Sequence record: ON568341.1
Strand: one strand, 5' to 3'
Origin: Escherichia phage UE-S1
DNA length: 64,000 nucleotides
The notes beneath the pieces are model-generated. The model worked only from the letters and a program-made list of their open reading frames with translations. It did not search any database and had not been told where the DNA came from. Below are positions 3,072 through 18,060 of the stretch, one piece after another. Position 1 is the stretch's first letter, and every line of letters begins with the position of its first letter. Made by a program: the position numbers and the translations under genes.

Positions 3072-3078
3072 CAAAAAA

Positions 3079-3104: not shown

Positions 3105-3139
3105 CTATAATCATTTCATCAACTGATGAGGATAACGAA

Positions 3140-3921: not shown

Positions 3922-3950
3922 TTGACAGTACTAACAATGTGTAGTATTAT
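3922..3950 (+). promoter_or_regulatory. sigma70-like promoter for membrane-protein array
   Basis: TTGACA(3922-3927), 17 nt spacer, TATTAT(3945-3950). Confidence 0.5.
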
Positions 3951-3966
3951 ACACTGGAGACACCTG

Positions 3967-4308: not shown

Positions 4309-4646
4309 TGTTAGAATTTTTTAAATCAGATGTGATGCTTAGTATTACATTGATTTATATGTTTGGGTTTTTATTTTATCATATACTAGTTGTAGTTCTA
4401 TGGTATTTTAAAAAGAAAATAGTTTTCAAACTGTATCCACCTAGTAATATTTTATTGTTTCTTTACACACTTATTCAAGGTATGTTTGTGATTGTTGGTG
4501 TTATCACTCACTTAATTTATTGTACTAATCCACATTTAAACTCGATAACACAATATGTTGTTTTCTTTGGGTTGTTCATTTGGTTAGTTGTATACTTAAT
4601 CCATCTCATTATTCATGGTAGAGATAAAATTCGCGGAGACTTCTAA
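4308..4646 (+). CDS. small polytopic membrane protein, family member 2
   Basis: TAATG stop/start overlap; hydrophobic; C-term GRDKIRGDF parallels ARDRIKGEF of member 1. Confidence 0.55.
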   Translation: MLEFFKSDVMLSITLIYMFGFLFYHILVVVLWYFKKKIVFKLYPPSNILLFLYTLIQGMFVIVGVITHLIYCTNPHLNSITQYVVFFGLFIWLVVYLIHLIIHGRDKIRGDF

Positions 4647-4993
4647 TGTTTGAAGCTTATCTTGAGTTTTTAAGGAGTAGTCCAGTTGCACATTCACTTG
4701 CAGGGATTATTCTAACAACTTATGTAACATTTTGGGTAGTTATGTTTATAGGATGGTATTTTAAACGACAATTCTATAAACGTAATGTTGAAGATTTTAT
4801 GAATTCTGCAATTAATCAATCGTTGTTTGCATCAACATTTATTGCATGTATTGTAGCAACACTCACAGGAAAGGTACTACCAGCTTTTTCCGCAGTTTAC
4901 GGTACACTTGGGATGATATGTTTAACTTTTATATTGACCATTAAAATTTGTTGTGTTATGATTGAACTTCGAAACAAGATACCGGAGGAATGA
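4646..4993 (+). CDS. small polytopic membrane protein, family member 3
   Basis: TAATG overlap; WYFKRQ motif; hydrophobic. Confidence 0.5.
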   Translation: MFEAYLEFLRSSPVAHSLAGIILTTYVTFWVVMFIGWYFKRQFYKRNVEDFMNSAINQSLFASTFIACIVATLTGKVLPAFSAVYGTLGMICLTFILTIKICCVMIELRNKIPEE

Positions 4994-5328
4994 TGGAGTA
5001 CTTTATTGATTTACTACCGTGGTATATGAAAGTTAGTACTTTGTACTATATTATTAGTGCTGGATTCTATTTCCTGATGTGGTTCTTTAAACGACCAATT
5101 TCAGTATTCATCTCTGACAACCTACTGCAATTAAAATTACACGCATGGTTTGGTATGTCCATGATTATGCCAATTATTCATTACTCGATGATTAGTAATG
5201 GTTTTCGTTCTAGTGGTGAGCCAGTTGTAATTGTATTTTATTGGGGTTCAACTATAGTATATGTCGGTTTTCTATTGTTCCCGATCATTCATAAATTACG
5301 TGCTAAAGTTCCTGATGCGAGGTACTAA
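4990..5328 (+). CDS. small polytopic membrane protein, family member 4
   Basis: ATGA overlap; hydrophobic; WFFKRP motif. Confidence 0.5.
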   Translation: MMEYFIDLLPWYMKVSTLYYIISAGFYFLMWFFKRPISVFISDNLLQLKLHAWFGMSMIMPIIHYSMISNGFRSSGEPVVIVFYWGSTIVYVGFLLFPIIHKLRAKVPDARY

Positions 5329-5642
5329 TGGATATAGTAACATTGATTTACACGTTGTATTCATTCTATTTTATTATGTGTTGGGTTGGATTTGTATTTG
5401 TACTCAAGATGTTTGATTATGTTGAAAGACAGATAAAAGATTTTTGTATTCCTTTTATCGGTTCAACCATTATTAGTGTTTCTTGTGTGTATTTTTTGGT
5501 GTTTGATCCACCAGATAACACTGCGATGATTGACTTCATGTTACTACCAACCACTATTATTTTTTTATGTAGTCTGATGCCACCTATTAGTCGTGGATTG
5601 ACTGAATTTAGACGCAAACAAAAGCGTAAAAGAGGGATGTAA
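5328..5642 (+). CDS. small polytopic membrane protein, family member 5
   Basis: TAATG overlap; hydrophobic. Confidence 0.5.
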   Translation: MDIVTLIYTLYSFYFIMCWVGFVFVLKMFDYVERQIKDFCIPFIGSTIISVSCVYFLVFDPPDNTAMIDFMLLPTTIIFLCSLMPPISRGLTEFRRKQKRKRGM

Positions 5643-6010
5643 TGGAAATTGCTCTTATTATCTTAACTGCTATGCTGTTTATTAGTACTGTGGTTATAAT
5701 TGGTAAATTCTTTTGTGTATCATTTTTAGAAACGGTATACGATGAAATTGCTGATGATTATGAATTACAAGCCGGATTTTTTATTACGTATTGGCTTAGT
5801 TTATTTTGTCTAGTCATTGCTTGGATTTTGCATATCTTTAAATGGGGTATGGTAGATGGTGATCCTGTCATGGGAATTATTGTTCTAGTGTTTGGTATCC
5901 TTGGTGGTGCAGTGCATAATCTGATGGTTATCTGGCAAACTGTTCAATATGTTTTGGTTCCCTATTTTGAAAAGATGCACAGTACAATTAAAAAACGTAA
6001 ACGAGGTTAG
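5642..6010 (+). CDS. small polytopic membrane protein, family member 6
   Basis: TAATG overlap; hydrophobic. Confidence 0.5.
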   Translation: MEIALIILTAMLFISTVVIIGKFFCVSFLETVYDEIADDYELQAGFFITYWLSLFCLVIAWILHIFKWGMVDGDPVMGIIVLVFGILGGAVHNLMVIWQTVQYVLVPYFEKMHSTIKKRKRG

Positions 6011-6011
6011 T

Positions 6012-6374
6012 ATGAACGGGATAGAATTATCTTTCATTGGTCAATTACTAGTAATGGTGAATACTTTCATTTTCTCATTTATTGCATTGATGTGCATTGG
6101 AAAGTATTTCCACAAACGACCATTATCAAATTTATATGATGTAATAAAAAAGAAATATAGTCCAGCACACACTGTACTTATTAGTAGTTTCAATTTTGGG
6201 TTTGTTGTATTAATAATTGGATTGTTAACATCAACGTCGAATGTACTAATCTTCGGTCTTATGATTTGTTCATTGGTATTAGCAGCAATTATATGTTGTT
6301 TAGTACTGCACCTTGTAGTACTATTATATATAAAGCTCGTTGAAATCCATCAACGTTTAGGGATGAGGAAATAA
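6012..6374 (+). CDS. small polytopic membrane protein, family member 7
   Basis: ATG 6012 with GAGG SD; track ORF 5949 trimmed. Confidence 0.5.
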   Translation: MNGIELSFIGQLLVMVNTFIFSFIALMCIGKYFHKRPLSNLYDVIKKKYSPAHTVLISSFNFGFVVLIIGLLTSTSNVLIFGLMICSLVLAAIICCLVLHLVVLLYIKLVEIHQRLGMRK

Positions 6375-6375
6375 T

Positions 6376-6747
6376 ATGAGTTACCGTGAGATATTTTCCA
6401 TTATTTCAATTATTATGTTCAGTACTGGAACATTGGTGTGGGTATTATATTTTTTCTGTGTAGCACCAGTGTATAATATGTTATGTAATATTAAATCAAG
6501 TGCTGGATATATTACTTTTATGGTCTTTATGGGATATTATTGTCTAAGCATTTTAGGTGTTGTTTTGGTTGTTATATTAGATGTTGGACCGAATAGGGAT
6601 GGTCTGAAAATGTATGAGTTATTAACTATGTTTGGGTGTATGATACCAACAGCACTAATGTTTGTAGCTATTGGTGGTGGATGCATAAAGTTATACAATT
6701 ATTTAAAATCTATTCATCATTCCATTCACAATAAGCGTATGTCATAA
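6376..6747 (+). CDS. small polytopic membrane protein, family member 8
   Basis: GGAAA SD-like; hydrophobic. Confidence 0.5.
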   Translation: MSYREIFSIISIIMFSTGTLVWVLYFFCVAPVYNMLCNIKSSAGYITFMVFMGYYCLSILGVVLVVILDVGPNRDGLKMYELLTMFGCMIPTALMFVAIGGGCIKLYNYLKSIHHSIHNKRMS

Positions 6748-6788
6748 TAAAAATCCAGTACTGAATAGTACTGGACTAATAAGGAGTT

Positions 6789-7439
6789 ATGATGAAATCA
6801 AAATTAGGTTTGTTTTATGGAAACTACTTCATTAAACAGCGTAAATTCATAAAAAAATACTTCTCTACAGAGAAATCTAGTCCTCTAATTTTTAAAAGAC
6901 CAAAATATAATTTTTACTTAGCTGGTGCTAAACAGTCTAAGAAATTCATTACATTTTTAAATAAAAACAAAATTAAAGCTTCTTATGTTGAAACCAGAAA
7001 GAACTCATCAATAATTCCTGGTGATTTTATTGAATACGGATGTTTCAATATTAAGCACAATGATAACACATACTTTATGGATATTGATTGTAATACATCA
7101 AATCTTTTTAACATTGTAATAAATCCATCAAAACAATATAATGTTTATGGTGATTCAATTATCAAATTAATAAGAAACAAAGATTGGTTTGATTTTGAAA
7201 TAAATGTTTTAGATGAAAACTTTGATGAAGTTCCAGTTAATCCTGAAATATGTGATATATTAAACAGTTTAAAAGGTAGTAGCTACAATATACCATCTGA
7301 TTTAATGTTCCAGTACTCATTAATCCATAAAGATATTGAACAGTACATTATGTGTGCTAAAATCTTGAATTATCTGTATGATGAATTTAAAATGAGTTCT
7401 AAAATAACAGCATATACTCTTTATAATATTTCTATATAA
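6789..7439 (+). CDS. hypothetical protein (216 aa, Lys/Asn-rich)
   Basis: AAGGAG SD; long ORF ending at bidirectional terminator. Confidence 0.5.
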   Translation: MMKSKLGLFYGNYFIKQRKFIKKYFSTEKSSPLIFKRPKYNFYLAGAKQSKKFITFLNKNKIKASYVETRKNSSIIPGDFIEYGCFNIKHNDNTYFMDIDCNTSNLFNIVINPSKQYNVYGDSIIKLIRNKDWFDFEINVLDENFDEVPVNPEICDILNSLKGSSYNIPSDLMFQYSLIHKDIEQYIMCAKILNYLYDEFKMSSKITAYTLYNISI

Positions 7440-7450
7440 TTTAAAATATT

Positions 7451-7476
7451 AAAGCCAGCACAAGAGCACTGGCTTT
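7451..7476. terminator. bidirectional terminator hairpin between convergent genes
   Basis: AAAGCCAG-10 nt loop-CTGGCTTT flanked by A/T runs. Confidence 0.5.
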
Positions 7477-7480
7477 AATA

Positions 7481-8626
7481 TTATTTTTTCCAAGGAAGTA
7501 ACGAAGTTGGAATCTTGATAGGTATATTTGATGCAGCAACATCAGGAAAATTTGCATCTCCACAAACATACAAATTATCGATTTCGTCAATCAATAATGT
7601 ATAGTTGTAACTTCTACAAAAACCGCTTAAGCCTCTTCCCTCTAATGCAGATAAATTCATTTCAGTGAATTGAGTTATATATGTTTCATTTGAACCAACA
7701 CCACATTGACCATTAGCATTTATACCACAAGTAAGCAATTTATTATTGTTTTGAATTACACATGATGGTCCAGCAAGGTTCGTACCTAGTTCACCTACAA
7801 CATTAACTTCACCTTTTAATGATAAATTTTGGATCACTGTACTCATAGGGACACGCGATGTATTTCCAACACCTGCTTGTCCTGAGCCATTAGTGGATGC
7901 AACTTTAACAGTACCGTCATTAAGAAAAATATAAGATGTTTCGATGGTATTAACTGCTTGTGTAGCTGTTGTTATTGTCGTATCCTGCTTGAATTTAAGT
8001 ACATTTGTTGTTGTTGAACCAGATATAAATGTAGCACCTGCGTACCAATAGGTTCCATCTTGAAGTACTAAACCAGTACTTCTAATTGAACACCCTGCAC
8101 TGCGAACATTTTCTATATGACTATATGTAAAGGTTGATACGATTGAAGATTCACCATTACCGAACACCCCACCAGTACCTGCACCACAGAAAAACCATTT
8201 ACCGTTTTTCAAAAATACACGCATACAAGCAGAAATAACCACACTATCAATATCACTTGCAGCTACACCAAAATCGGTAAAGAAATGAGTTATATCAATC
8301 CAATTACCACCAGTATTTGATGGGAGATGGGGAATTACAACTCTAGTCCCTGTGTACCAGATTGTATCATCATCTTTAATAACAAGAGTACCTTGAACAC
8401 CACCCCAATACCTTGTTACATTTGTATTAACAAGCCTCCACTCAGTAGATGATTCAGTGGAGCCATTACCACCTTGACCATAAGATGATGAGCCGTGCCA
8501 GTATAAATTTCCATTTTTATCTAAATAAAATTTTGCATCAGCCGAACATTGCAATCTGTATTTGAATACGGTTTTTGGTGCTGGTGCAATATTTGCATAT
8601 TTTAGCATTCTACCAAAAGGTAACAT
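7481..8626 (-). CDS. RCC1-like beta-propeller protein with MLPFGRM tag (paralog 9)
   Basis: N-term MLPFGRMLKYANI; repeats such as CGINANGQCGVGSNET; AAGGAG SD. Confidence 0.7.
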   Translation of the reverse strand: MLPFGRMLKYANIAPAPKTVFKYRLQCSADAKFYLDKNGNLYWHGSSSYGQGGNGSTESSTEWRLVNTNVTRYWGGVQGTLVIKDDDTIWYTGTRVVIPHLPSNTGGNWIDITHFFTDFGVAASDIDSVVISACMRVFLKNGKWFFCGAGTGGVFGNGESSIVSTFTYSHIENVRSAGCSIRSTGLVLQDGTYWYAGATFISGSTTTNVLKFKQDTTITTATQAVNTIETSYIFLNDGTVKVASTNGSGQAGVGNTSRVPMSTVIQNLSLKGEVNVVGELGTNLAGPSCVIQNNNKLLTCGINANGQCGVGSNETYITQFTEMNLSALEGRGLSGFCRSYNYTLLIDEIDNLYVCGDANFPDVAASNIPIKIPTSLLPWKK

Positions 8627-8704
8627 AATTTTTCTCCTTCATTCATTATACTGTATTTAATCCAATTAAGAAAAGCTAGTATCAAGTACTGGCATTTAAA
8701 AGAA
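8627..8704 (-). promoter_or_regulatory. intergenic cassette: terminator hairpin + TAAATA..TATAAT promoter + SD
   Basis: minus strand reads GCCAGTACTTGATACTAGC hairpin ... TTAAATACAGTATAATGAATGAAGGAG-ATG. Confidence 0.5.
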
Positions 8705-9880
8705 TCAAATTGTCGGAAGTGGGAATTCTTTCATCACCGATGAACTGTTTGCTGCAATATTATCAGGAGATTTACCAGCGTAGTATAATTTATTATTAAT
8801 AAACATATATAGCGTTGCATCGTTCCCTGCTACAAGAGAATTACTTTTCTTAAAAATAACCCCTGGGGGTAAAATAGCTTCAACAAATGAACCTGATTCT
8901 CGTGTTGAATTGTTTGCCAATTGACCATTATTATTATAACCAGTACTATAAATTTTACCTGAACTATAATACACAAGACCACGTGTACTAATGTTTTCTA
9001 TACGAATGAATTCACTATCGTCCGGTACTGTAGTTGATAGAACTGGGTATAACTTATAAGCTGATGTTACATTATTATTACCCAATTGACCATAACCTTG
9101 AAAGCCTAGTGCATACATAGGACATGATTCTGGTGTACCTTTTGTTATAATACCAATATAATTCGAACTACAAAAAATATCCACTGCTTCTACAACATTT
9201 GTACCCTTATATTGAACCCAAGGAAATACATATGATTGTTGTTTGCCATTACCCAAAACACCGGAAGTTGTTGTACCTGTACGCCACATTGTATCATCAA
9301 GTTTAATAATCCAGTTAGCAGTTGTTATAGTTGAACAGAATTTTTTAACATTATCAACCAAGTATGTAAATTTATTATAATATGATGCAGTGTTTATTCC
9401 AAATTTAGCACCAGTATTGTCACCTAACAAATATAAACTATTATCTGTACCTAAAATCAAAACATAATCATGACCCACGTATATCTTTTTGATTTTTGAA
9501 ATACCAAATTGTGTAAAATAGCTGGTACATTCAGTGAATATTGTTACATGATTTGATGTATTATTACCTAGCCATTTATCTAAACCACTATAAAAGAACC
9601 TATCATCATTTGTGCGTATTAGACAAAAAGAATTATTTGTACTGCACCAGAAATCTTTGACATTACTATATATTTTTGTCCATTCAGTTACTTGATTAGT
9701 ATGACCTAAACCAAAAATTCCACCATTTTGTAGTCCCATAGCCCATATTGAACCATTTTTATCAAGAAGCATTGTGCATGTAAATGAATACCCACACGCT
9801 GGAGTAACTAATTTAACAAAATTGGGAATATATGGTAAAACTTTATTCCCATAATTCACCATTCTTCCAAAAGGTAACAT
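8705..9880 (-). CDS. RCC1-like beta-propeller protein with MLPFGRM tag (paralog 8)
   Basis: N-term MLPFGRMVNYGNK; STGYNNNGQLANN, LGFQGYGQLGNNN repeats. Confidence 0.7.
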   Translation of the reverse strand: MLPFGRMVNYGNKVLPYIPNFVKLVTPACGYSFTCTMLLDKNGSIWAMGLQNGGIFGLGHTNQVTEWTKIYSNVKDFWCSTNNSFCLIRTNDDRFFYSGLDKWLGNNTSNHVTIFTECTSYFTQFGISKIKKIYVGHDYVLILGTDNSLYLLGDNTGAKFGINTASYYNKFTYLVDNVKKFCSTITTANWIIKLDDTMWRTGTTTSGVLGNGKQQSYVFPWVQYKGTNVVEAVDIFCSSNYIGIITKGTPESCPMYALGFQGYGQLGNNNVTSAYKLYPVLSTTVPDDSEFIRIENISTRGLVYYSSGKIYSTGYNNNGQLANNSTRESGSFVEAILPPGVIFKKSNSLVAGNDATLYMFINNKLYYAGKSPDNIAANSSSVMKEFPLPTI

Positions 9881-9953
9881 ATTCTCTCCTTATTCATTAT
9901 AATATATATTTAATACAAATAATAATGCCAGTACTCAAATACTGGCATTATTA
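9881..9953 (-). promoter_or_regulatory. intergenic cassette: terminator hairpin + promoter + SD
   Basis: GCCAGTATTTGAGTACTGGC hairpin; GTATTAAATATATATTATAATGAATAAGGAG. Confidence 0.5.
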
Positions 9954-11144
9954 TTACAATTGTCTAGGTGTATCCAGAACATATCTATTTGTGCTAGGAC
10001 CGCCATCATCATAAGTTCCGGTTGAATATATATTTTTCATATCAGCAGTTAGAAATGTACGATACGAACCTCTATATATTTTTATTTTATCATACATATT
10101 ATATGTAATTTGTGCTGGCATTGGACATATAGTAAATCTTCCAATAGTCCCCACTGAACCTACCCCCAATGAGCCAGCATAACTACTCGCATTTAAACCA
10201 GTTGCATATACACCAGAACTCGTAACTAGTATACTAGATTGTGATGGGTATCCAGTATGAATTGAATACAAAGTTCCAGGTGGTAATGTCGTACTATTTC
10301 TCCCTAATACAGCAAGTGCCGAACTGGATGTGGTATTATTACCCCATGCACCATTACTTGCTAAACCACCAACTAGGAACTGACGTACACCCGTACTTGG
10401 ATTTTCCACCAAAGCACTGACTGAACCCATTGAGCATCCAGTGTATTGTAACGTTTTTGTGTATGTTGTACTTGGCTGATATAAAGTATATTCATTATAT
10501 AAAGTCCATGTAGTACTGGAACTTATACCGGATGTACCACCACCAATATATAAATTATTTTGTTTATCAAACAACATTACACAGTTATTTGTTGACATTA
10601 TTTGTGCAATATCAACATTAGGTGTTACTGCTTTTACAAATGAACCATCTGTTATTTGTTGAGTTTTTCCAGTACCATCAGCGAATTGTCTAGCCCCACT
10701 CCAACCAGTACTCCATATTGTATTATTATCCATTAAGAAAGTAAACCACGTAGTACCTGCATACATCTGTTTAATTGAAGTACTTGAACTTTGTTTGTAC
10801 AAATTTTCAATATATTGGTTATAACTTAAAAATGATGTAGTACTGGTTGGTAAACCAATATGACTACCAAATCCACAATAGAAATAATTTAAGTCATTAT
10901 CTTGAACTAACAAAGTTCCTTGTGTGATCCAGCAATCATTAACGTTTTCTCTAATTAATGTCCATGTTCTTAATGCAGTGTTGTTTCCTCTCCCAAACTG
11001 CCCAAAACTATTATTACCTCGTGCATATAGTTGACCATCAGTATAAAGTACAACAACATCAGTATCGGTTGTTAGTATTTTCTTAATTTGAAGTGGGATA
11101 GGTACAATATTCCCGTACTTAACCATTCTTGCAAAAGGTAACAT
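9954..11144 (-). CDS. RCC1-like beta-propeller protein with MLPFGRM tag (paralog 7)
   Basis: N-term MLPFARMVKYGNI; ARGNNSFGQFGRGNNT repeat. Confidence 0.7.
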   Translation of the reverse strand: MLPFARMVKYGNIVPIPLQIKKILTTDTDVVVLYTDGQLYARGNNSFGQFGRGNNTALRTWTLIRENVNDCWITQGTLLVQDNDLNYFYCGFGSHIGLPTSTTSFLSYNQYIENLYKQSSSTSIKQMYAGTTWFTFLMDNNTIWSTGWSGARQFADGTGKTQQITDGSFVKAVTPNVDIAQIMSTNNCVMLFDKQNNLYIGGGTSGISSSTTWTLYNEYTLYQPSTTYTKTLQYTGCSMGSVSALVENPSTGVRQFLVGGLASNGAWGNNTTSSSALAVLGRNSTTLPPGTLYSIHTGYPSQSSILVTSSGVYATGLNASSYAGSLGVGSVGTIGRFTICPMPAQITYNMYDKIKIYRGSYRTFLTADMKNIYSTGTYDDGGPSTNRYVLDTPRQL

Positions 11145-11215
11145 ATTTTCCTCCTTTATTCATTATACTATATTTAATCAAAAAGAAAAGCCAGTATCAA
11201 GTACTGGCCTATATT
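11145..11215 (-). promoter_or_regulatory. intergenic cassette: terminator hairpin + promoter + SD
   Basis: GCCAGTACTTGATACTGGC hairpin; GATTAAATATAGTATAATGAATAAAGGAGG. Confidence 0.5.
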
Positions 11216-11953
11216 TTAGACTGAATTGTTAGGATAATATCTCCCCCTTCCCCATATTATTCGCACAGCACCACCACCAGCAGCCGTATAAGAAGAATTA
11301 TCCCATATACTACCACCACCACCATACCTCTTACCAGCACCACCACTACCAGCACCACCATTATATGAACCACCGTAGCTACCACCAATACCATTAGCAC
11401 CTTGAACAATGATACCAGTACCACCACCCGTACCAATGAACGAGGTACTATAGAATGTACCACCCCCACCGCCGCCACCAGCACCATTTTCACCAGTGAT
11501 TGCATCTCCGTTACCACCTTTACCAGTGTAGCCACCAGCACCACCACCAATGACTGCACCACCACTTACACCAGTGTTGCCACCATTACCACCACCATCA
11601 TTAATAGCGTTAGCAGCTTTTCCACCTAGTCCACCAACCGTATATGCACCAGTGAAGCTAACACATAGTTTTTCAGTTCCACGATATAAACCGTTTTCAA
11701 CTGCTGTAGTAGTGTTGGGATGTGTAAGAGAAACACTTAAGTACTCACCACCAGAAACCGGAATATTATTACGCCACGATAAGCCGCCACCAGCACCACG
11801 TTGACCACCCGGCGAAATAACACATACTGATATTTCGGTAACGCCAGCAGGAACTGTAAATTGTGTTGTTCCTATTGTCGTGATTAATTGTTCACCATGT
11901 GGCTTATATTCAATTTTATTCCCGAACTTAACCATTCTTCCAAAAGGTAACAT
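11216..11953 (-). CDS. glycine-rich protein with MLPFGRM tag (paralog 6, non-propeller)
   Basis: N-term MLPFGRMVKFGNK; long GGxGG runs (..GGGNGGNTGVSGG..GAGGGGGGG..). Confidence 0.65.
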   Translation of the reverse strand: MLPFGRMVKFGNKIEYKPHGEQLITTIGTTQFTVPAGVTEISVCVISPGGQRGAGGGLSWRNNIPVSGGEYLSVSLTHPNTTTAVENGLYRGTEKLCVSFTGAYTVGGLGGKAANAINDGGGNGGNTGVSGGAVIGGGAGGYTGKGGNGDAITGENGAGGGGGGGTFYSTSFIGTGGGTGIIVQGANGIGGSYGGSYNGGAGSGGAGKRYGGGGSIWDNSSYTAAGGGAVRIIWGRGRYYPNNSV

Positions 11954-12024
11954 AATTCCCTCCTTTATTTGTTATACTATATTTAATACAAAAAGAAAAG
12001 CCAGTACTCAGTACTGGCATAATG
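11954..12024 (-). promoter_or_regulatory. intergenic cassette: terminator hairpin + promoter + SD
   Basis: GCCAGTACTGAGTACTGGC hairpin; GTATTAAATATAGTATAACAAATAAAGGAGGG. Confidence 0.5.
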
Positions 12025-13167
12025 TCAATAAGTATCCCAAGGTAATGGTGTCTTCCTAAATCCATACCTGGTTGTGCTCGCACCATCACCAGCAATGTAT
12101 CTACCTATACCACATTGGTATAACTCTGTACTACTACATATAGCACCACCTATAGTACCACTACTCCACTGAATTATATTAGAATATGTTATTGGTAAAT
12201 CACTACATTTAGTATATACAGCAACGGTAGAAGCACCACTAATACCACCAAACATACTTCGCTTAGCACCAGTGTAATATATACCATCTGGACTCATAAA
12301 TGCAGAGGTGTAAGTTGTACTGCAATCCACTGGACTTCTTATTGTATTAAGATCGCCTGGATATGTTCTGACACCAAAGGTGTATACATTACCATCAGTT
12401 GTAATACCATTACCTAACTGCCCACTGTTTTGTCCACCACATGTAAGCAACGATGCAGAACCAGAAACAATTGCAGTAGCATTATACGAAGTGCCCATTG
12501 CAATAGAAGCACCAGACAATAGTTTTGGAGTAACAATAGCTGTTGTATTACCCTGGCCTAATTCACCATTTGTGTTTCGTCCCCATGCGTATATGGAAGT
12601 AGTATCCAACCTACATAGTACTGAACCATAACTAAACGTATATCGCATGTCAATTACCGCAGAAGGCAAATTAACCTTAGTTGCAACACTAATAACACCA
12701 CCAGTAACACCACTGTTTGCGTTCATGTTACGACCATATGCATATAAAGAACCATCTGAAGTTTTAATATGCATCATACCATCTGTACAATATAATGCAT
12801 CTATACTCTCCACCGCAACCGGACCCATACTGGTAGTTATATCGGTCCACCCAAGAGTAGTAGTACTAGAAATTAAGTTATTTCCTGCGTATAGTATTCT
12901 ATTATTATTAGTAACTACAACTGTATATCTGGCAGTAACACCAATTAATCGAACATCAGTATATATCTTAGACCACGCACCTAATGAATTGGTGTTTGCA
13001 TCCAAAAAGCCCAACTGCCCATCTGTATTGTATCCAATGCCCCATACATCACCTGCACTGTCCAATAACACTTCATGTGAAAATCCAATCTTAAAATCTT
13101 TTATTGTAGGAACTACCGGATCTGGTGCAATATTCCCGTACTTAACCATTCTAGTAAAAGGTAACAT
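12025..13167 (-). CDS. RCC1-like beta-propeller protein with MLPFGRM tag (paralog 5)
   Basis: N-term MLPFTRMVKYGNI; WGIGYNTDGQLGF, WGRNTNGELGQGN, CGGQNSGQLGNG repeats. Confidence 0.7.
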   Translation of the reverse strand: MLPFTRMVKYGNIAPDPVVPTIKDFKIGFSHEVLLDSAGDVWGIGYNTDGQLGFLDANTNSLGAWSKIYTDVRLIGVTARYTVVVTNNNRILYAGNNLISSTTTLGWTDITTSMGPVAVESIDALYCTDGMMHIKTSDGSLYAYGRNMNANSGVTGGVISVATKVNLPSAVIDMRYTFSYGSVLCRLDTTSIYAWGRNTNGELGQGNTTAIVTPKLLSGASIAMGTSYNATAIVSGSASLLTCGGQNSGQLGNGITTDGNVYTFGVRTYPGDLNTIRSPVDCSTTYTSAFMSPDGIYYTGAKRSMFGGISGASTVAVYTKCSDLPITYSNIIQWSSGTIGGAICSSTELYQCGIGRYIAGDGASTTRYGFRKTPLPWDTY

Positions 13168-13240
13168 AATTCCCTCCCTTATTCATTATAATATATTTAA
13201 TACAAAAAAGAAAAGCCAGTACTTGAGTACTGGCATTATG
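13168..13240 (-). promoter_or_regulatory. intergenic cassette: terminator hairpin + promoter + SD
   Basis: GCCAGTACTTGAGTACTGGC(13215-13234); GTATTAAATATATTATAATGAATAAGGGAGG. Confidence 0.5.
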
Positions 13241-14350
13241 TTATTTTGGTAAATCAATTTTAGTAAAGACTGCAACATCCTCGCTTGCCCCAGGAATGGC
13301 GTAATACGATCCAGTACTATATACATCTCCGTCTTTGGTTAATATTGATGTTAAACCATCACTAAAAAGAACATCCCTAATCTCACTAACTTCAACGGGT
13401 AATTGTAAATTAGTAGCACTATATATTGCACCAGTTTGAGAATTGTTTAATCCCAAACCACGGTTCGCCCCAACACCCTTCTGATATGTACTAGTAATTA
13501 TCATTTGTGTAGCAGTATTTAAGGCAGGTGAATTCGTCATAAACAACGGAGAACTATTAGGCAAAGTACTTGCAGGAACTGCACGAAATGAAGTTGTATC
13601 TGAACTAAGAAAGTTTGGCGTTTGACCACATACGAAATATGATGTACCATTATAGTAATTAAATGCATTACCACCAATGACTGCATCGATTACACCAGAG
13701 CTACGTAATCCCCACGTGTTAATTTGTGTTCGGTTCCCCGTGCCATGCTGACCCCTGTCATTCCACCCAGAACTATATAACTTATTATCTAATGTAATAT
13801 ACATACTGTCATTTGCATTCGTCATTACTTTACGCACATTAGTAGCACATTGAGTTAATGTGTAAATTGATGATGAACCAATACCTAAAGCACCACGATA
13901 TCCATTAGCTCCTGCACCATAGAGTACTGAACTAGTGCTAAGTACAAATATTAAACCATACGAACATACAATATTAGCAATTTCACTCACTGGTATAGCA
14001 CTGGTAAACCAATTAGTTCTTTCAACTAATACTGTGCTGTAAGAAGTAGTTGTAGACGATGTGAACCAATATGTTTCCCCTGATGTCCATATAGTATTAT
14101 CATTTTTAATAATAACAAGTGCACGATCACCTACGAAAAAATTAGAAACATCTGCACTTACTAATATCCATGAAGATACCGTGTTTTTATTACCATTTCC
14201 AGATTCACCACCTTGATTTCTACCTATGTAATATAAATCATGTGAATCAGTTAATAAGAATTGACCCTGTGTAGATGCACCAACTTTAATTATATTTTTA
14301 GGACCAGGTACAATATTCCCATAATCAAACATTCTTACAAAAGGTAACAT
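13241..14350 (-). CDS. RCC1-like beta-propeller protein with MLPFGRM tag (paralog 4)
   Basis: Start set at conserved MLPFVRMFDYGNI (track ORF extends 5 codons upstream); SSGWNDRGQHGTGN repeat. Confidence 0.65.
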   Translation of the reverse strand: MLPFVRMFDYGNIVPGPKNIIKVGASTQGQFLLTDSHDLYYIGRNQGGESGNGNKNTVSSWILVSADVSNFFVGDRALVIIKNDNTIWTSGETYWFTSSTTTSYSTVLVERTNWFTSAIPVSEIANIVCSYGLIFVLSTSSVLYGAGANGYRGALGIGSSSIYTLTQCATNVRKVMTNANDSMYITLDNKLYSSGWNDRGQHGTGNRTQINTWGLRSSGVIDAVIGGNAFNYYNGTSYFVCGQTPNFLSSDTTSFRAVPASTLPNSSPLFMTNSPALNTATQMIITSTYQKGVGANRGLGLNNSQTGAIYSATNLQLPVEVSEIRDVLFSDGLTSILTKDGDVYSTGSYYAIPGASEDVAVFTKIDLPK

Positions 14351-14425
14351 AACTAAAATCTCCATATAATAATTATAATGTATTTACAAAAAAATACCAG
14401 CACATATTTCAGTACTGGTATAATG
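14351..14425 (-). promoter_or_regulatory. intergenic cassette: terminator hairpin + promoter + SD
   Basis: CCAGTACTGAAATATGTGCTGG hairpin; TGTAAATACATTATAAT...GGAG. Confidence 0.45.
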
Positions 14426-15607
14426 TTATGGTAAAATAATAGCTTGTAACGAACTCATACCCAATGTTGGAACACTCGCCTGTGGTGCTGGAGAATTCAA
14501 TTTTGGTGATGAAACCGCATATGACATTCCTGAACCCAAATCTGGATCAAAAACTACAGCACAATAATTCCCACTATATATAAGTCCATTCTTGTATCCT
14601 TGTGCACTTTGAATGCATTTCGTGAACGTACCAATATCTGTAGTGGCATTTATTAAGTTCCTCCCACGATAACCGCAGGTGTATATGAAATTATCATCGC
14701 CTATGTACATACTAGAATCCCCAGAAGAACTACATAGATACGACATATAAGCACGCATGTTTTTAGGAGCAACTGACAATGTACCTGCATAGAATTTATT
14801 ATTCGAACCCGTAATATTACCATCACCCAATGCACCAAAACTTCCCCAGCCAGTACCGTAATATCTCTTATCACTCAAAAATATAATACAGTTGTTATTA
14901 CACATCTTGATTTGATATATCAATGAAGGATCAATCCCAGGGAATGATTCAGTGAATGTTAGAACAGCCGGATCAGTACTAGCATTACATTGATGATATG
15001 TATTAGTACCAGCGGACAAGATTGTTCCATTAGCTAACAGAATTCTCGCAGTACCAGTACCAGCAGTACAAGCAACTGCACTTCCTGCACTTCCGGTGTA
15101 TATTTGTCTGAAAGTAAAGAAACCAACAGTTTTACTTCCCTGCCCACTCCAACCAGTATTATCAACTCCACACGCCCATACTGAACCATCTTGCATGATC
15201 ATCATTACACCAAAGCGTTCTATTGAAATATAAACAATCTTCGTTGTATCAACTGCACTAAATCTAGAAGTTATATCAGTCCATACCTTAACACTTACCG
15301 CCGTCGCACTGGAAGTAGGATCTTCACCAGCTATCATTATCCTCCCATTGTTAGTAAGATACATTGTCTGACTATAACCAGTACTACAAAACTTAACACT
15401 ATCAGTCTCTGGAACTTTTAACCACTCGTTGTAACGTGTTACGTTAGTGTTATTACCTAACTGATAATAGTTATTCATCCCAGATACATATAACACACCA
15501 TCCTTTATTAAACTATAAGTCGCACTATAGTCACTACAGGTATAACGTGTACCCACAGGTGGCTCAACGACGTTCCCGTACTTAACCATTCTCCCAAAAG
15601 GTAACAT
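14426..15607 (-). CDS. RCC1-like beta-propeller protein with MLPFGRM tag (paralog 3)
   Basis: N-term MLPFGRMVKYGNV; TGWGSFGALGDGN, MNNYYQLGNN repeats. Confidence 0.7.
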   Translation of the reverse strand: MLPFGRMVKYGNVVEPPVGTRYTCSDYSATYSLIKDGVLYVSGMNNYYQLGNNTNVTRYNEWLKVPETDSVKFCSTGYSQTMYLTNNGRIMIAGEDPTSSATAVSVKVWTDITSRFSAVDTTKIVYISIERFGVMMIMQDGSVWACGVDNTGWSGQGSKTVGFFTFRQIYTGSAGSAVACTAGTGTARILLANGTILSAGTNTYHQCNASTDPAVLTFTESFPGIDPSLIYQIKMCNNNCIIFLSDKRYYGTGWGSFGALGDGNITGSNNKFYAGTLSVAPKNMRAYMSYLCSSSGDSSMYIGDDNFIYTCGYRGRNLINATTDIGTFTKCIQSAQGYKNGLIYSGNYCAVVFDPDLGSGMSYAVSSPKLNSPAPQASVPTLGMSSLQAIILP

Positions 15608-15680
15608 AATAAAATCTCCGTAATTAAATTATATAGTATTTACAAAAAATACCAGTACATATTTCAGTACTGACCTATTA
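15608..15680 (-). promoter_or_regulatory. intergenic cassette: terminator hairpin + promoter + SD
   Basis: CAGTACTGAAATATGTACTGG hairpin; TGTAAATACTATATAAT...GGAG. Confidence 0.45.
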
Positions 15681-16802
15681 TTAAAAGGGCAACGGTAACT
15701 CAGTAAAAGTACTTACGTCCGGTAAACCATACATTAAATTAGCATCACCACAGTAATACCACTTCGTAGAATCATGTACCACCGATAAACGCTGTGCACA
15801 TAACACTTCCTGTATGTCATTAAACACCATCGGGACTAACTCATATGTATCTGCAAATGAAGATTCACTACCACTCGCATGAAAAGTATTTGTCCCAGCA
15901 TAAAATAACTGATTAGTGTTCTTACCCACAGCAAATGTTATCAAAACCCCATCATTCTCCCATAAAGAAGAAAACTTATCAACACTACCAGAAAGCTCTG
16001 TGTAAGTACTCGTAATGGCACTCGCCGCCGCCGCATTACCCATCTGTTTATTCAAGTTCTGTCCAGCAATAAAATATCTCGTTCGTGCACTAGAATCAGT
16101 ATATAATAACCCAGTGTTCGTAGTCATCATTCCAATGTCCTTAATCGTCATATCAGTCTGTGAATAACTTAGATACGAAGTTAAATTAACATTATTACCC
16201 AACGAACCGTTAGAACTCATGCCACAACGATGTAATATACCACTTGTATCAACGTAGATAGTACTAACTAAACTCGTATACAACTCTTGTACATTATTCG
16301 CAATAAACACAGCAGTCGCCTTATTACTAACCCCACCAAATGATAGGTTATTATCAAATCCCTTAGCGTATAATTGATTATTAGTAGTCAATAATCCAAT
16401 CGTGTAATAAGACATTTTCATATCCCTTACTGTACTCAAATCTACTGCCCCAAATTGATACGTAACATCTGTCCATTTGAAAATCTGTGCACTACCAACA
16501 CCACCCGTTTCAAACCATTTGTCACCACAGTACAATATGCGATTATCCTTAGTAAAGATAACTGTTAACAATCCACTACCACACGCAAACTTTACATCAC
16601 TTCTAACCTTCGTCCAATCAAGTACATAGGTAGTGGTGTTATTACCTATACCTAACTTGCCATAACGGTTATAACCACGCACCCATAAATCACCACTCTT
16701 AGTAATTAATAGTAATGCGTCTCCTGTACTTATTATTCGAAATCCCGAACTAGGATCAGGGGCAATATTCCCGTACTTAACCATTCTCCCAAAAGGTAAC
16801 AT
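15681..16802 (-). CDS. RCC1-like beta-propeller protein with MLPFGRM tag (paralog 2)
   Basis: N-term MLPFGRMVKYGNI; YNRYGKLGIGNNT, MSSNGSLGNN repeats. Confidence 0.7.
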   Translation of the reverse strand: MLPFGRMVKYGNIAPDPSSGFRIISTGDALLLITKSGDLWVRGYNRYGKLGIGNNTTTYVLDWTKVRSDVKFACGSGLLTVIFTKDNRILYCGDKWFETGGVGSAQIFKWTDVTYQFGAVDLSTVRDMKMSYYTIGLLTTNNQLYAKGFDNNLSFGGVSNKATAVFIANNVQELYTSLVSTIYVDTSGILHRCGMSSNGSLGNNVNLTSYLSYSQTDMTIKDIGMMTTNTGLLYTDSSARTRYFIAGQNLNKQMGNAAAASAITSTYTELSGSVDKFSSLWENDGVLITFAVGKNTNQLFYAGTNTFHASGSESSFADTYELVPMVFNDIQEVLCAQRLSVVHDSTKWYYCGDANLMYGLPDVSTFTELPLPF

Positions 16803-16875
16803 ATTTTCCTCCTTTATTCATTATACTATATTTAATACAAAAAGAAATGCCAGTATCAAGTACTGGCATATTAAT
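16803..16875 (-). promoter_or_regulatory. intergenic cassette: terminator hairpin + promoter + SD
   Basis: GCCAGTACTTGATACTGGC hairpin; GTATTAAATATAGTATAATGAATAAAGGAGG. Confidence 0.5.
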
Positions 16876-18024
16876 TCATTGTATAAATGACATATCTACT
16901 TCTGTATAATTAAGAACGTTCTGTCCAGAAATACCACCCATTACTACTATTGCAAGGCCACAATAATATAATTTTCCAGTATCCGTAAGTATAAGTGATC
17001 CAGATGGACTGCGTACCAAATCACACGAACTATTAAAAGAAGTATAAGAAGGAGTATAGGAGTACTGATTATTATTATTACCAACACCTAATTGCCCAAA
17101 CCCATTCGATCCAGAAGCATATAGAACTTCATCTGCTTTGACAATATGTGATGCCATGTTACCAACACAAGTATATAGAGTATAAACTCCTGAACTCAAT
17201 AATGTCGGAGTTTTATATTGTATATCTGTAGATGTAGAAGTACCACCTGTACCAAATTCGTTCCCATATTGTGCACCGAACTGTTTGCCACAAGCGTACA
17301 AATTATTATCCGATTTGATAAAAAATGTACTCTGATAACTTACATTAAAATCTATAACATCCGAAGAAATCATCGTCACCCCAGTAATAGAAGTTTGATT
17401 ACCCGTGCCCAACTGGTAGTAATAGTTAAAACCACAACCCCATAAAGTATTATCTTCTCGCAAATAAATGTTACCAACTGCCTTTTTAACCGAAGTTATA
17501 GTATCTACTCTTTTGAATGTGTTAAAAGAATTAATGTTTGTACCATCACCAAATGATGATATGTTCGATATATTGTTAACTCCACAACAATACAATGTAC
17601 CATCTTTTGTTATCAAATTCACCTTCATATCATAAAAACTACTCATGTATTTTATATCAGAAACATTAACACCACTTGATGTTATCCACGTAGTACAGTC
17701 CGTCCACAAAGTTTTTCTATCAGTTACACCAGTGAATGCCTTCGTGTTACCAGTGATAAAAACTTTTCCAGTACCTTTCTCTTCATACAATTGACAATCA
17801 CTACTGTTATCTTCCAATAGAACTCGTTTAACATTCTCCGCACAAAGAATAAATTTACTCGATGCTACACCTGTACCAGTACCCCAATTCGTCGCAGAAG
17901 ATGCATACAACTTATCAGTATAAGTATCATGAAGATACATAGAATCACTGGAATATATTTTAAAACGCCCTTCTTTCTCAGGTATAATATTCCCGTACTT
18001 AACCATTCTCCCAAAAGGTAACAT
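16876..18024 (-). CDS. RCC1-like beta-propeller protein with MLPFGRM tag (paralog 1)
   Basis: N-term MLPFGRMVKYGNI; GSNGFGQLGVGNNN, FNYYYQLGTGNQT repeats. Confidence 0.7.
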   Translation of the reverse strand: MLPFGRMVKYGNIIPEKEGRFKIYSSDSMYLHDTYTDKLYASSATNWGTGTGVASSKFILCAENVKRVLLEDNSSDCQLYEEKGTGKVFITGNTKAFTGVTDRKTLWTDCTTWITSSGVNVSDIKYMSSFYDMKVNLITKDGTLYCCGVNNISNISSFGDGTNINSFNTFKRVDTITSVKKAVGNIYLREDNTLWGCGFNYYYQLGTGNQTSITGVTMISSDVIDFNVSYQSTFFIKSDNNLYACGKQFGAQYGNEFGTGGTSTSTDIQYKTPTLLSSGVYTLYTCVGNMASHIVKADEVLYASGSNGFGQLGVGNNNNQYSYTPSYTSFNSSCDLVRSPSGSLILTDTGKLYYCGLAIVVMGGISGQNVLNYTEVDMSFIQ

Positions 18025-18060
18025 ATTCCCTCCTTATTCATTATATCATATTTACCCAAA
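18025..18060 (-). promoter_or_regulatory. promoter + SD of first array gene
   Basis: minus strand GGTAAATATGATATAATGAATAAGGAGGG-ATG. Confidence 0.45.

What the first reader, a model, noticed from the sequence alone, without database searches (positions are those of the whole stretch)
7481..18024. Nine tandem paralogs sharing a 13-aa N-terminal tag (MLPFGRMVKYGNI), eight of them RCC1-like beta-propellers
Nine consecutive minus-strand genes (245-396 aa) all start with nearly the same peptide, MLPFGRMVKYGNI(A/V)P. Eight then diverge into bodies full of G-x-N-x-x-GQLG-x-G type repeats (e.g. WGIGYNTDGQLGF, ARGNNSFGQFGRGNNT), the signature of RCC1-like 7-bladed propellers. A short conserved leader peptide on hypervariable bodies suggests a targeting or anchoring signal, perhaps for virion incorporation or attachment to a common adaptor, with the variable propellers acting as binding modules. 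T4 internal proteins with a shared capsid-targeting sequence map next to denV, and denV lies 5 kb away here, but the tag is not T4-like. I do not recognise this family.
Basis: partly seen in the sequence, partly recalled or inferred. Interest (0 to 1): 0.85.

Follow-up and report, generated by a model that had tools for sequence, protein, structure and literature searches.

The report
Shared docking tag on phage adhesins
Nine neighbouring genes of a giant E. coli phage encode small binding proteins that all begin with the same 12-residue peptide; this peptide also heads unrelated virion proteins in related giant phages and most likely plugs interchangeable binding modules onto the virus particle.

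Summary
Nine minus-strand genes (7481-18024) all start M-L-P-F-x-R-M-x-x-(Y/F)-(G/A)-N. Eight are RCC1-like seven-bladed propellers. The ninth is a TNF-like plus glycine-rich, adhesin-like protein. The window comes from an Asteriusvirus-type jumbo coliphage (PBECO4/121Q/phAPEC6 group).

The RCC1 array was already annotated, and its products were found in phAPEC6 virions by mass spectrometry. The tag itself appears not to have been described.

- It is the only invariant part across 72 paralogs.
- It always sits at the N-terminus.
- It occurs in at least 94 protein clusters.
- In other genera (CBB, GAP32, Serratia, Erwinia and Yersinia jumbo phages) it heads Kelch propellers, ConA-like lectin domains and other bodies. 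There it uses different codons and different upstream DNA, so the constraint acts on the protein.

Published CBB virion peptides include tag residues 7-20, so the tag is not cleaved off as the T4 capsid-targeting sequence is. Within Asteriusvirus a hairpin, promoter, ribosome-binding site and tag cassette is also kept uniform at the nucleotide level, and tag variants are swapped between orthologs.

Best reading, inferred rather than shown: an uncleaved docking peptide that displays interchangeable adhesin modules on the virion, possibly on its hair-like fibres.

The parts
16876..18024 (-). g9, 382 aa: MLPFGRMVKYGNI tag plus RCC1-like propeller
   Evidence: orthologs 92-96% identical in 121Q, SHEFM2K, WPEC5 and JP4
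15681..16802 (-). g8, 373 aa: tag plus RCC1-like propeller
   Evidence: 97% ortholog in phage ph0011; no ortholog above 27% identity in the five arrays compared
14426..15607 (-). g7, 393 aa: tag plus RCC1-like propeller
   Evidence: ortholog only in WPEC5 among the five arrays compared, 97% identical but carrying a different tag variant (VRMFDYGN)
13241..14350 (-). g6, 369 aa: MLPFVRMFDYGNI tag variant plus RCC1-like propeller (true start 14350, not 14365)
12025..13167 (-). g5, 380 aa: tag plus RCC1-like propeller; counterpart of phAPEC6 gp005 (84% identical body), which was detected in virions
   Evidence: (model and fold)
11216..11953 (-). g4, 245 aa: MLPFGRMVKFGNK tag plus beta-sandwich plus glycine-rich domain (PF21722-like relatives; weak fold match to the cyanophage Pam3 tail fibre)
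9954..11144 (-). g3, 396 aa: tag plus RCC1-like propeller
8705..9880 (-). g2, 391 aa: tag plus RCC1-like propeller
7481..8626 (-). g1, 381 aa: MLPFGRMLKYANI tag plus RCC1-like propeller
18040..18054 (-). Promoter-like motif TAAATAYNNTATAAT upstream of g9. The same motif lies at 16820-16834, 15628-15642, 14372-14386, 13185-13199, 11971-11985, 11162-11176, 9896-9912 and 8645-8659. It is present before all nine genes and nowhere else in the window.
   Evidence: TAAATA core shared with upstream regions of phAPEC6 structural genes
16847..16869 (-). Terminator-like hairpin GCCAGTACT-loop-AGTACTGGC plus T-run between g9 and g8. Equivalent hairpins lie at 15651-15674, 14394-14421, 13215-13234, 12000-12018, 11188-11210, 9928-9945 and about 8675-8693.

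Best explanation
The nine genes are separately transcribed virion-protein genes of an Asteriusvirus-type jumbo coliphage. Each has its own upstream terminator hairpin, a promoter-like motif with a TAAATA core, and a ribosome-binding site. Each encodes one compact ligand-binding module: eight seven-bladed RCC1-like propellers and one beta-sandwich plus glycine-rich, adhesin-like domain.

In front of each module sits a 12-residue N-terminal peptide, M-(L/I)-P-F-x-(R/Q/I)-(M/L/I)-phi-x-Y-(G/A)-N, where phi is a hydrophobic residue. A hydrophobic residue and usually a proline follow it.

Inferred function: the peptide is not cleaved and works as a common docking element, probably a short capped amphipathic helix that folds on binding. 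It would attach any of these modules to one kind of site on the particle. That would give the virion a mixed, exchangeable set of adhesins.

The most plausible sites are the hair-like fibres seen on phAPEC6 and CBB. In CBB these hairs end in tiny globular structures.

The array diversifies by duplication and by gain and loss of genes. It also diversifies by homologous recombination within the conserved 5' cassette (hairpin, promoter, RBS, tag), which moves bodies and tag variants around.

Shown: the fold, the virion association of relatives, retention of the tag in CBB virions, protein-level constraint, and recombination signatures. Inferred: the docking function, the docking site, and the adhesin role.
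For: 1. The tag is the only invariant part. Across 72 RCC1-like paralogs at about 20-25% identity, the invariant columns are M1 L2 P3 F4 Y10 N12 plus one Gly.

2. The tag alone is significant and is always N-terminal. A 33-position profile against 1.84 billion representatives gave 100 hits at E<=1e-3. Of these, 94 are real tags, and 90 lie at annotated residue 1.

3. The same tag sits on unrelated bodies. In Pectobacterium phage CBB, gp425-431, gp442, gp443 and gp247 all start MLPF..., with Kelch propeller, Laminin_G_3 or other bodies. BLAST clustering gives about 10 body families.

4. The constraint is at protein level. Outside Asteriusvirus the codons vary: Pro CCA/CCT/CCC/CCG, Leu TTA/TTG/CTA/CTT, Tyr TAC/TAT and all four Gly codons. 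Upstream DNA there is unrelated.

5. The proteins are in virions. phAPEC6 gp003, 005, 006, 007 and 009 were detected by mass spectrometry, their masses match, and all start MLPF. CBB_247, 536, 537, 548, 549, 551, 552 and 553 were also detected.

6. The tag is retained in mature CBB virions. The peptides LFEYANVIIPPNYK and YANVIVEYATK cover tag residues 7-20 and 10-20.

7. The tag is predicted to be a flexible extension in two different folds. pLDDT is 56 for residues 1-10 of g5, with a short helix at 4-10, and below 50 for residues 1-7 of g4. The bodies score above 90.

8. The bodies look like external binding modules.
- The best PDB fold match of g4 is the Pam3 tail fibre gp24, which is built of docking helices, a TNF-like domain and a glycine-rich receptor-binding domain.
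- The CBB ConA-like bodies match C-terminal parts of proteins over 1000 aa long annotated as virion structural proteins.
- Composition is poor in charged residues (K+R 6-8%, D+E 4-8%) and rich in S/T/N/G/Q (39-53%). Other window ORFs have 10%, 13.7% and 27%.

9. CBB hairs were measured 'incl. tiny terminal globular structures'. phAPEC6 has hairs on both tail and capsid.

10. A lineage-specific leader on shared bodies. In rV5-like phages, homologs of the ConA-like and glycine-rich bodies lack MLPF and instead start M-x-E-(M/L)-(L/M).

11. A TAAATA core lies upstream of all nine genes, as it does upstream of most phAPEC6 structural genes examined.
Against: - No docking partner has been identified, and no structure shows the tag bound to anything.
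- The link to the hairs is circumstantial. GAP32 carries at least two tagged genes (its ConA-like homologs are listed), and the CBB paper leaves open whether GAP32 has hairs.
- Mass-spectrometry coverage of the phAPEC6 array proteins is low (3-17%). They could be minor or loosely associated components.
- The g4-Pam3 fold match is weak (TM 0.29, E 1.6e-3).
- Tag retention was shown for CBB proteins only, not for the Asteriusvirus proteins.
- The promoter class is inferred from a motif only. The array uses T/G-TAAATA rather than the canonical ATAAATA, and it also carries a TATAAT.
- A 12-residue anchor is unusually short for a phage fibre or adhesin.
Confidence: 0.5

Rival explanations
1. Uncleaved capsid-targeting signal. 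The tag directs the proteins into the prohead, for example by binding the scaffold. They would then be internal or ejected proteins, or inner-body components, as the phAPEC6 authors speculated for the RCC1-like proteins.
For: A short shared N-terminal leader on diverse bodies is the logic of the T4 internal proteins (from memory of the T4 literature). These phages have a T4-type prohead protease and scaffold, and phAPEC6 has an inner body. The proteins are virion-associated at low coverage. The tag has helical propensity.
Against: Tag residues 7-20 persist in mature CBB virions, unlike the T4 capsid-targeting sequence, which is cleaved off. There is no similarity to the T4 sequence. Position 9 is E, Q, K, D or N, so there is no consistent (L/I)-x-E site. 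The bodies are propellers, ConA-like lectin folds and an adhesin-like glycine-rich domain. They are low in charge, unlike DNA-associated internal proteins. Coverage is too low for a 91 x 18 nm inner body.
Confidence: 0.15
2. The tag is a recognition element for something other than the virion. Examples are a phage-encoded folding or assembly chaperone, or a regulatory factor. Virion association would then be mediated by the bodies.
For: Fibre and adhesin proteins often need dedicated chaperones; Pam3 gp24 needs gp25. The tag is flexible and exposed in both models.
Against: The bodies belong to about 10 unrelated families, so a common body-mediated attachment is unlikely. Known fibre chaperones bind the distal (C-terminal) parts, not the N-terminus. 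The tag stays on the mature protein.
Confidence: 0.12
3. The conservation is only nucleotide-level. A duplicated regulatory or recombination cassette (hairpin, promoter, RBS, first codons) is kept uniform by gene conversion, or selected for expression, and the peptide has no function.
For: Conservation runs from about -75 to +40 around the ATG. In 74 Asteriusvirus genes, codons 2 and 3 are always TTA and CCT, although the bodies use them only 46% and 31% of the time. Gly11 is GGG or GGA, although the bodies prefer GGT at 63%. Tag variants are swapped between orthologs: 0.084 differences per nt in the tag against 0.037 in the next 300 nt.
Against: Array genes without the upstream cassette keep the tag. 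CBB and other genera keep the amino acids with different codons and unrelated upstream DNA. A protein-only profile retrieves 94 N-terminal tags. At conserved positions nearly all variation is synonymous; the only exception is Gly to Ala at position 11.
Confidence: 0.03
4. The proteins act like eukaryotic RCC1, as 'chromosome condensation regulators' or DNA-condensation proteins, as many database annotations say.
For: Only the name of the fold family and the annotations.
Against: RCC1-like propellers are generic interaction scaffolds. The same tag sits on Kelch, ConA-like lectin and glycine-rich bodies. The composition is low in charge. No Ran-like partner is known in bacteria (general knowledge).
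Confidence: 0.03

Closest known systems
T4 internal proteins (IPI, IPII, IPIII, Alt) with the 10-residue capsid-targeting sequence (from memory of the T4 literature)
   Same: A short, shared N-terminal leader on otherwise unrelated proteins. Both sets end up in the virion, are encoded in variable loci, and have their own promoters.
   Different: There is no sequence similarity and no (L/I)-x-E cleavage site. The tag is retained in mature CBB virions. The bodies are binding-type folds with low charge rather than small, highly charged internal proteins.
Adenovirus fibre tail motif (FNPVYPY) docking into the penton base; lambda gpD N-terminal arm (from memory)
   Same: A short conserved N-terminal peptide, disordered on its own, anchors a variable or globular protein to a fixed capsid site.
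   Different: Those systems use one protein per site rather than 9-16 alternative proteins. The viruses are unrelated and the motifs differ. Binding has not been demonstrated here.
Tail-fibre adhesins with a glycine-rich receptor-binding domain: Pam3 gp24 and S16/T2 gp38 (PMC9608196)
   Same: g4 has a beta-sandwich followed by GGGGxGG-type glycine-rich motifs, and its best PDB fold match is Pam3 gp24. Both are small proteins with an N-terminal attachment element followed by a distal binding domain.
   Different: The fold match is weak (TM 0.29). The N-terminal helical docking or attachment domain is replaced by the 12-residue tag. No adjacent chaperone gene was identified.
Multi-tailspike or branched receptor-binding systems (CBA120 TSP1-4, G7C, PhiK64-1, PhiKp24, RaK2) (from memory)
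   Same: Many alternative receptor-binding proteins on one virion, with conserved N-terminal attachment parts and variable distal parts.
   Different: There the anchors are whole domains (tens to hundreds of residues) and the bodies are trimeric beta-helix depolymerases. Here the anchor is a 12-residue peptide on small propeller, lectin or glycine-rich modules. No multi-copy tag hit came from a contig of RaK2 or K64-1 size in the viral-contig scans, but whether those two genomes are in that collection was not checked.
PeSL cassettes (promoter-early stem-loops) of T4-type phages (Arbiol et al. 2010, from memory)
   Same: A repeated stem-loop plus promoter unit lies between genes of a plastic region and serves as a substrate for modular shuffling.
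   Different: The promoter here has a late-type TAAATA core plus TATAAT rather than an early sigma-70 promoter. The repeated unit also extends into the coding sequence (the tag).
phAPEC6 'RCC1-like / DNA condensation' proteins (PMC7247149)
   Same: The same gene family and array. Eleven copies were noted and eight were detected in virions.
   Different: That paper does not mention the shared N-terminal peptide ('N-terminal' occurs 0 times). It proposed a DNA-organising inner-body role, which the present evidence does not favour.

Membership tests
RCC1-like domain (seven-bladed beta-propeller; Pfam PF00415, PF13540, PF25390) | RCC1 repeat signatures in the sequence | tested here: met
   Eight of nine proteins hit RCC1, RCC1_2 or WD40_RLD at E 1e-14 to 1e-24. 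Seven have at least one repeat model above its gathering score, but WD40_RLD stays below its cut-off of 150 bits.
RCC1-like domain (seven-bladed beta-propeller; Pfam PF00415, PF13540, PF25390) | Seven-bladed propeller fold | tested here: met
   AF2 model of g5: pLDDT 87.6. Foldseek top hits are UVR8, RPGR, HERC2 and RCC1, TM 0.65-0.77. Modelled for one member only.
RCC1-like domain (seven-bladed beta-propeller; Pfam PF00415, PF13540, PF25390) | Ran-GEF or chromatin-binding activity of RCC1 proper | not testable with these tools
   There is no reason to expect it. Identity to the eukaryotic proteins is 13-20%.
T4-type capsid-targeting sequence / internal proteins | Shared short N-terminal leader on unrelated bodies that end up in the virion | tested here: met
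   leader; virion
T4-type capsid-targeting sequence / internal proteins | Leader removed by the prohead protease at an (L/I)-x-E site | tested here: not met
   Position 9 is variable (E, Q, K, D, N). Tag residues 7-20 and 10-20 are found in CBB virion peptides.
T4-type capsid-targeting sequence / internal proteins | Location inside the head | not testable with these tools
   Only whole-virion mass spectrometry is available.
Glycine-rich tail-fibre adhesins (Pam3 gp24 / S16 gp38 type) | TNF-like beta-sandwich followed by stacked glycine-rich motifs | tested here: inconclusive
   For g4 only. The sequence has GGGGxGG-type runs and PF21722-bearing relatives. The AF2 model has pLDDT 93.4. The Foldseek top hit is 7ypx (Pam3 fibre) at probability 0.96 but TM 0.29, followed by the ALK glycine-rich domain. 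A profile search of PDB sequences found nothing.
Glycine-rich tail-fibre adhesins (Pam3 gp24 / S16 gp38 type) | N-terminal helical or attachment domain and a dedicated chaperone gene | tested here: not met
   Residues 1-19 of g4 are only the tag plus a linker. Its neighbours are RCC1-like genes.
PeSL-like mobile regulatory cassettes | Repeated stem-loop plus promoter between genes of a plastic region, associated with shuffling | tested here: met
   Hairpin plus promoter-like motif before the array genes. Array content and order differ between phages, and tags are swapped between orthologs.
PeSL-like mobile regulatory cassettes | Early sigma-70 promoter | tested here: not met
   There is no good -35 element. 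The motif shares its TAAATA core with upstream regions of structural genes.

The most novel reading that the evidence does not exclude
A cohesin-dockerin-like display system in giant phages. One kind of receptor site on the virion, for example the tips of the hair-like fibres on tail and capsid, would accept any protein carrying the 12-residue MLPF...YGN peptide. Each particle would then carry a stochastic mixture drawn from 9-16 interchangeable propeller, lectin or glycine-rich adhesins. This would be a built-in bet-hedging repertoire for surface recognition that evolves by cassette exchange. A parallel system with a different leader (M-x-E-M/L-L/M) would exist in rV5-like phages.
Probability: 0.3. 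Interest if true: 0.85.

Novelty: new variant of a known kind. Interest (0 to 1): 0.62.

Why it matters
It would name the components and the assembly rule for the unexplained 'hairy' appendages of Rak2-like jumbo phages. Two structural papers could not assign these appendages to gene products.

It would show that a peptide of only 12 residues can address proteins of any fold to a phage particle. That makes a practical handle for displaying foreign proteins on jumbo phages or for re-targeting them.

It corrects a widespread annotation ('regulator of chromosome condensation / DNA condensation protein') on hundreds of phage genes.

It also gives a concrete and easily tested hypothesis: tag-GFP incorporation, peptide pull-down, and cryo-EM of the fibre tips.

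Tried and rejected
1. T4-like cleaved capsid-targeting sequence. Rejected: there is no (L/I)-x-E site, and tag peptides are present in mature CBB virions.

2. The tag as the 'velcro' strand that closes the propeller. Rejected: the same tag sits on non-propeller bodies, and it is low-confidence and not integrated in both AF2 models.

3. Nucleotide-only cassette homology. Rejected as the sole cause. Kept as the mechanism by which the array evolves.

4. Looking for the tag on other proteins in the window: none beyond the nine.

5. Looking for the tag or the g4 body among solved structures: nothing by sequence.

6. Literature searches:
- 'MLPF' together with 'phage' found nothing relevant.
- The jumbo-phage comparative review does not mention RCC1 or Kelch.
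- The Sharanji paper contains none of the searched terms.
- No supplementary files are held for the phAPEC6 paper, so tag retention could not be checked for Asteriusvirus.

7. The two 216-219-aa plus-strand ORFs flanking the array are not paralogs.

8. The PVP-SE1 Laminin_G protein next to its glycine-rich gene does not share the M-x-E-M-L leader.

9. A 548-aa 'MLPFYSVKDYAN' protein in two small contigs (L034, L035) has a different body, possibly baseplate-hub-like by eye. It was judged a chance pattern match; that scan was estimated by hand to give a few chance hits.

10. No docking partner could be identified. There was no multimer prediction tool, and a full proteome comparison was beyond the budget.

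Full report
**1. The observation**

Nine complete minus-strand ORFs of 245-396 aa fill 7481-18024 with roughly 60-80 nt between them. All begin MLPF.RM..(Y/F)(G/A)N.

The DNA pattern ATGTTACCTTTTNNNAGAATG occurs nine times in the window, only at these starts. Chance expectation is 0.02.

The fourth gene's real start is the MLPF ATG at 14350. The upstream ATG overlaps the GGAG ribosome-binding site.

Eight proteins match Pfam RCC1, RCC1_2 or WD40_RLD. The 245-aa glycine-rich protein matches nothing in Pfam.

An AlphaFold2 model of the 12025-13167 protein was built on an alignment of 72 paralogs. It has pLDDT 87.6 and pTM 0.86. It superposes on the seven-bladed propellers UVR8, RPGR, HERC2 and RCC1 at TM about 0.65-0.77.

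**2. Where the window comes from and what was already known**

The region matches E. coli and Salmonella jumbo phages of the PBECO4/121Q/phAPEC6 group (Asteriusvirus, about 350 kb). Identity is 87-98% but patchy.

The phAPEC6 paper (PMC7247149) already noted 'eleven similar RCC1-like proteins'. It listed gp003, 005, 006, 007, 009, 010, 549 and 551 in the virion proteome, with 3-17% coverage. It speculated that they organise DNA in the inner body.

I checked the phAPEC6 record. gp003, 005, 006, 007 and 009 have the published masses and all start MLPF. gp005 is the phAPEC6 counterpart of the window's 12025-13167 gene, with an 84% identical body.

So the array and its virion association are known. 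The paper never mentions the N-terminus. A full-text search for 'MLPF' together with 'phage' found nothing relevant.

**3. The tag is a protein-level feature that extends well beyond this array**

Across 72 RCC1-like paralogs at about 20-25% identity, the invariant columns are M1 L2 P3 F4 Y10 N12 plus one glycine.

Degenerate-codon scans of viral and metagenomic contigs found multi-copy hits only in jumbo-phage contigs of 348-378 kb. These include 121Q, GAP32, CBB, Serratia phage BF and Yersinia phage fHe-Yen9-04 (identified by matching contig and record lengths), plus several uncultured relatives.

In Pectobacterium phage CBB (Mimasvirus), the syntenic minus-strand cluster next to the terminal repeat is gp425-431. 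Together with gp442, gp443 and gp247, all of these start MLPF(P/S/A/T)(R/I)...Y(G/A)N. Their bodies are Kelch propellers, Laminin_G_3/ConA-like domains and other families.

BLAST clustering of all tagged proteins gives about ten body families.

A profile of only the first 33 positions was searched against 1.84 billion representative proteins. It returned 100 hits at E<=1e-3. Of these, 94 are genuine tags, and 90 lie at the annotated first residue.

The logo is M1 (L/I)2 P3 F4 x5 (R/I/Q)6 (M/I/L)7 phi8 x9 Y10 G11 N12 (I/V/T)13 x14 P15, where phi is a hydrophobic residue.

Outside Asteriusvirus the conserved residues are written with varied codons:
- Pro3: CCA 26, CCT 6, CCC 4, CCG 1
- Tyr10: TAC 21, TAT 16
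- Gly11: all four Gly codons

First and second codon positions stay fixed. Upstream DNA there is unrelated.

One caveat: the loci were found by the motif itself. However, within each array every neighbouring gene carries the tag, including those that the search pattern missed.

It is therefore not met.

**4. A real nucleotide-level layer also exists**

Conservation runs from about -75 to +40 around each ATG. It covers a GCCAGTACT-loop-AGTACTGGC hairpin with a T-run, a TAAATAYNNTATAAT motif, an AGGAGG site and the first codons.

In 74 Asteriusvirus genes, codons 2 and 3 are always TTA and CCT, although the bodies use those codons 46% and 31% of the time. Gly11 is GGG or GGA, although the bodies prefer GGT at 63%.

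Orthologs whose bodies are at least 90% identical differ more in the 39-nt tag (0.084 per nt) than in the next 300 nt (0.037). Discrete tag variants recur on different bodies: GRMVKYGN, VRMFDYGN, ARMVKYGN and VRMMNYGN.

Array size (9-15 genes), content and order differ among the six genomes compared.

Some array genes lack the upstream cassette yet keep the tag.

I read this as gene conversion or recombination in the 5' cassette driving array evolution, on top of purifying selection on the peptide.

**5. Expression class**

The composite motif occurs before all nine genes and nowhere else in the window. Across all fetched loci, nearly every match lies just upstream of a tag-gene start, and there is none in 45 kb of the phAPEC6 structural module.

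Its TAAATA core also lies 25-60 nt upstream of most phAPEC6 structural genes examined. These include the major capsid protein, scaffold, protease, baseplate wedge and the giant gp245. Most of them carry ATAAATA or TATAAATA. CBB's authors proposed ATAAATA as the late promoter.

The array uses T/G-TAAATA. Late transcription is therefore plausible but inferred.

**6. Is the tag cleaved, and are the proteins inside or outside?**

The CBB supplementary peptide table lists LFEYANVIIPPNYK, which is residues 7-20 of CBB_536/gp443 and is preceded by R. It also lists YANVIVEYATK, residues 10-20 of CBB_548/gp431. The tag is therefore present in mature virions. The T4 capsid-targeting sequence, by contrast, is cleaved off.

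Position 9 is E, Q, K, D or N, so there is no conserved Glu site for a T4-type protease.

In the AF2 models of two different folds the tag is a low-confidence extension. In g5, residues 1-10 have pLDDT 56 with a short helix at 4-10. In g4, residues 1-7 are below 50 while the whole model averages 93.4.

The g4 model's best PDB match is the cyanophage Pam3 tail fibre gp24 (probability 0.96, but TM 0.29), followed by the ALK glycine-rich domain. Pam3 gp24 consists of N-terminal docking helices, a TNF-like domain and a glycine-rich receptor-binding domain, like the S16 gp38 adhesin.

CBB's ConA-like bodies match the C-terminal parts of proteins over 1000 aa long annotated as virion structural proteins in PHROGs.

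The nine proteins are poor in charged residues and rich in S/T/N/G/Q compared with other window ORFs.

CBB's tail hairs were measured 'incl. tiny terminal globular structures'. Five of its six mass-spectrometry-detected structural proteins that are absent from GAP32 (CBB_247, 536, 537, 551, 552) carry the tag.

phAPEC6 has similar hairs on its tail and capsid, and their proteins are unassigned.

Together this favours externally displayed binding modules over DNA-associated internal proteins. No direct localisation exists.

**7. An independent parallel**

Homologs of the ConA-like body in rV5-like phages (PBES02, 4MG and others) are annotated as virion structural proteins in some of those records. 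They align only from residue about 16-21 onward. They start MNEMLMLG or MEEMLLVG.

Many homologs of the glycine-rich body likewise start M-(L/I/F)-E-(L/M/T)-(L/M). These include PVP-SE1 gp19 and proteins on phage-sized contigs of about 150 kb.

The same two body families therefore carry a different short leader in another phage lineage. That is what one expects if the leader is matched to a lineage-specific partner. Only a few sequences were examined.

**8. Verdict**

The most likely mechanism is an uncleaved N-terminal docking peptide that mounts interchangeable adhesin-type modules on the virion, with the array evolving by cassette recombination (confidence about 0.5).

Rival explanations:
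- an uncleaved capsid-targeting signal for internal proteins (0.15)
- a tag for a chaperone or another non-virion partner (0.12)
- a nucleotide-only artefact (0.03)
- an RCC1-like 'chromosome condensation' role (0.03)

The array itself is already known. The tag, its spread across folds and genera, and its retention in virions appear to be new.

Noticed in passing
window, whole 64 kb, both strands: The heptamer ATAAATA, which matches the late-promoter core proposed for CBB and seen upstream of phAPEC6 structural genes, occurs 0 times. Dinucleotide-preserving shuffles predict 47.4 +/- 7.5. TATAAATA also occurs 0 times. This suggests strong avoidance of the late-promoter word in this mostly small-ORF (probably early) region.
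   Followed up: partly
window 3922-6747 (+): A tandem run of eight small (104-141 aa), very hydrophobic, membrane-protein-like ORFs lies just upstream of the array. Their translations show similar N-terminal halves in several. The syntenic genes in CBB and GAP32 are annotated as membrane proteins.
   Followed up: no
proteins P0010-P0068 and others; L072:1456-2106; L073:1465-2115: In rV5-like and other phages, the homologs of the glycine-rich and ConA-like bodies carry a different shared N-terminal leader, M-x-E-(M/L)-(L/M). This may be a second, lineage-specific tag system on the same two body families.
   Followed up: partly
L036 (phAPEC6 MK817115) 7325-8059 (+): The glycine-rich tagged gene is not annotated in the phAPEC6 record. 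An ORF within the same span (gp004, 'VVQSLVVV...') is annotated instead. The tagged ORFs at 3-1145, 2434-3543 and 6063-7253 are also unannotated, and gp002 is called with an over-long start.
   Followed up: partly
window 6755-6774 and 60070-60095: The same CCAGTACT...AGTACTGG hairpin that separates the array genes also occurs at two places outside the array. It looks like a general terminator or palindrome of this phage rather than something specific to the array.
   Followed up: no
L015:11752-13824 and L030:6413-8416: Some uncultured relatives have double-length (667-690 aa) tagged proteins that begin like the RCC1-like members. The C-terminal half was not examined.
   Followed up: no
window 18000-64000: Apart from the array, no ORF in this part of the window exceeds about 250 aa. 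In close relatives (SHEFM2K, WPEC5, JP4) the syntenic region is annotated as long runs of 60-70-aa paralogs (PHROG 11711). The array is thus an island of larger virion-protein genes on the opposite strand.
   Followed up: no
L006 (phage CMSTMSU, MH494197): This 'UNVERIFIED' record has many truncated or frameshifted copies of the array genes, with tag ORFs of 19-190 aa. This is probably due to sequence quality. It was excluded from the statistics.
   Followed up: no
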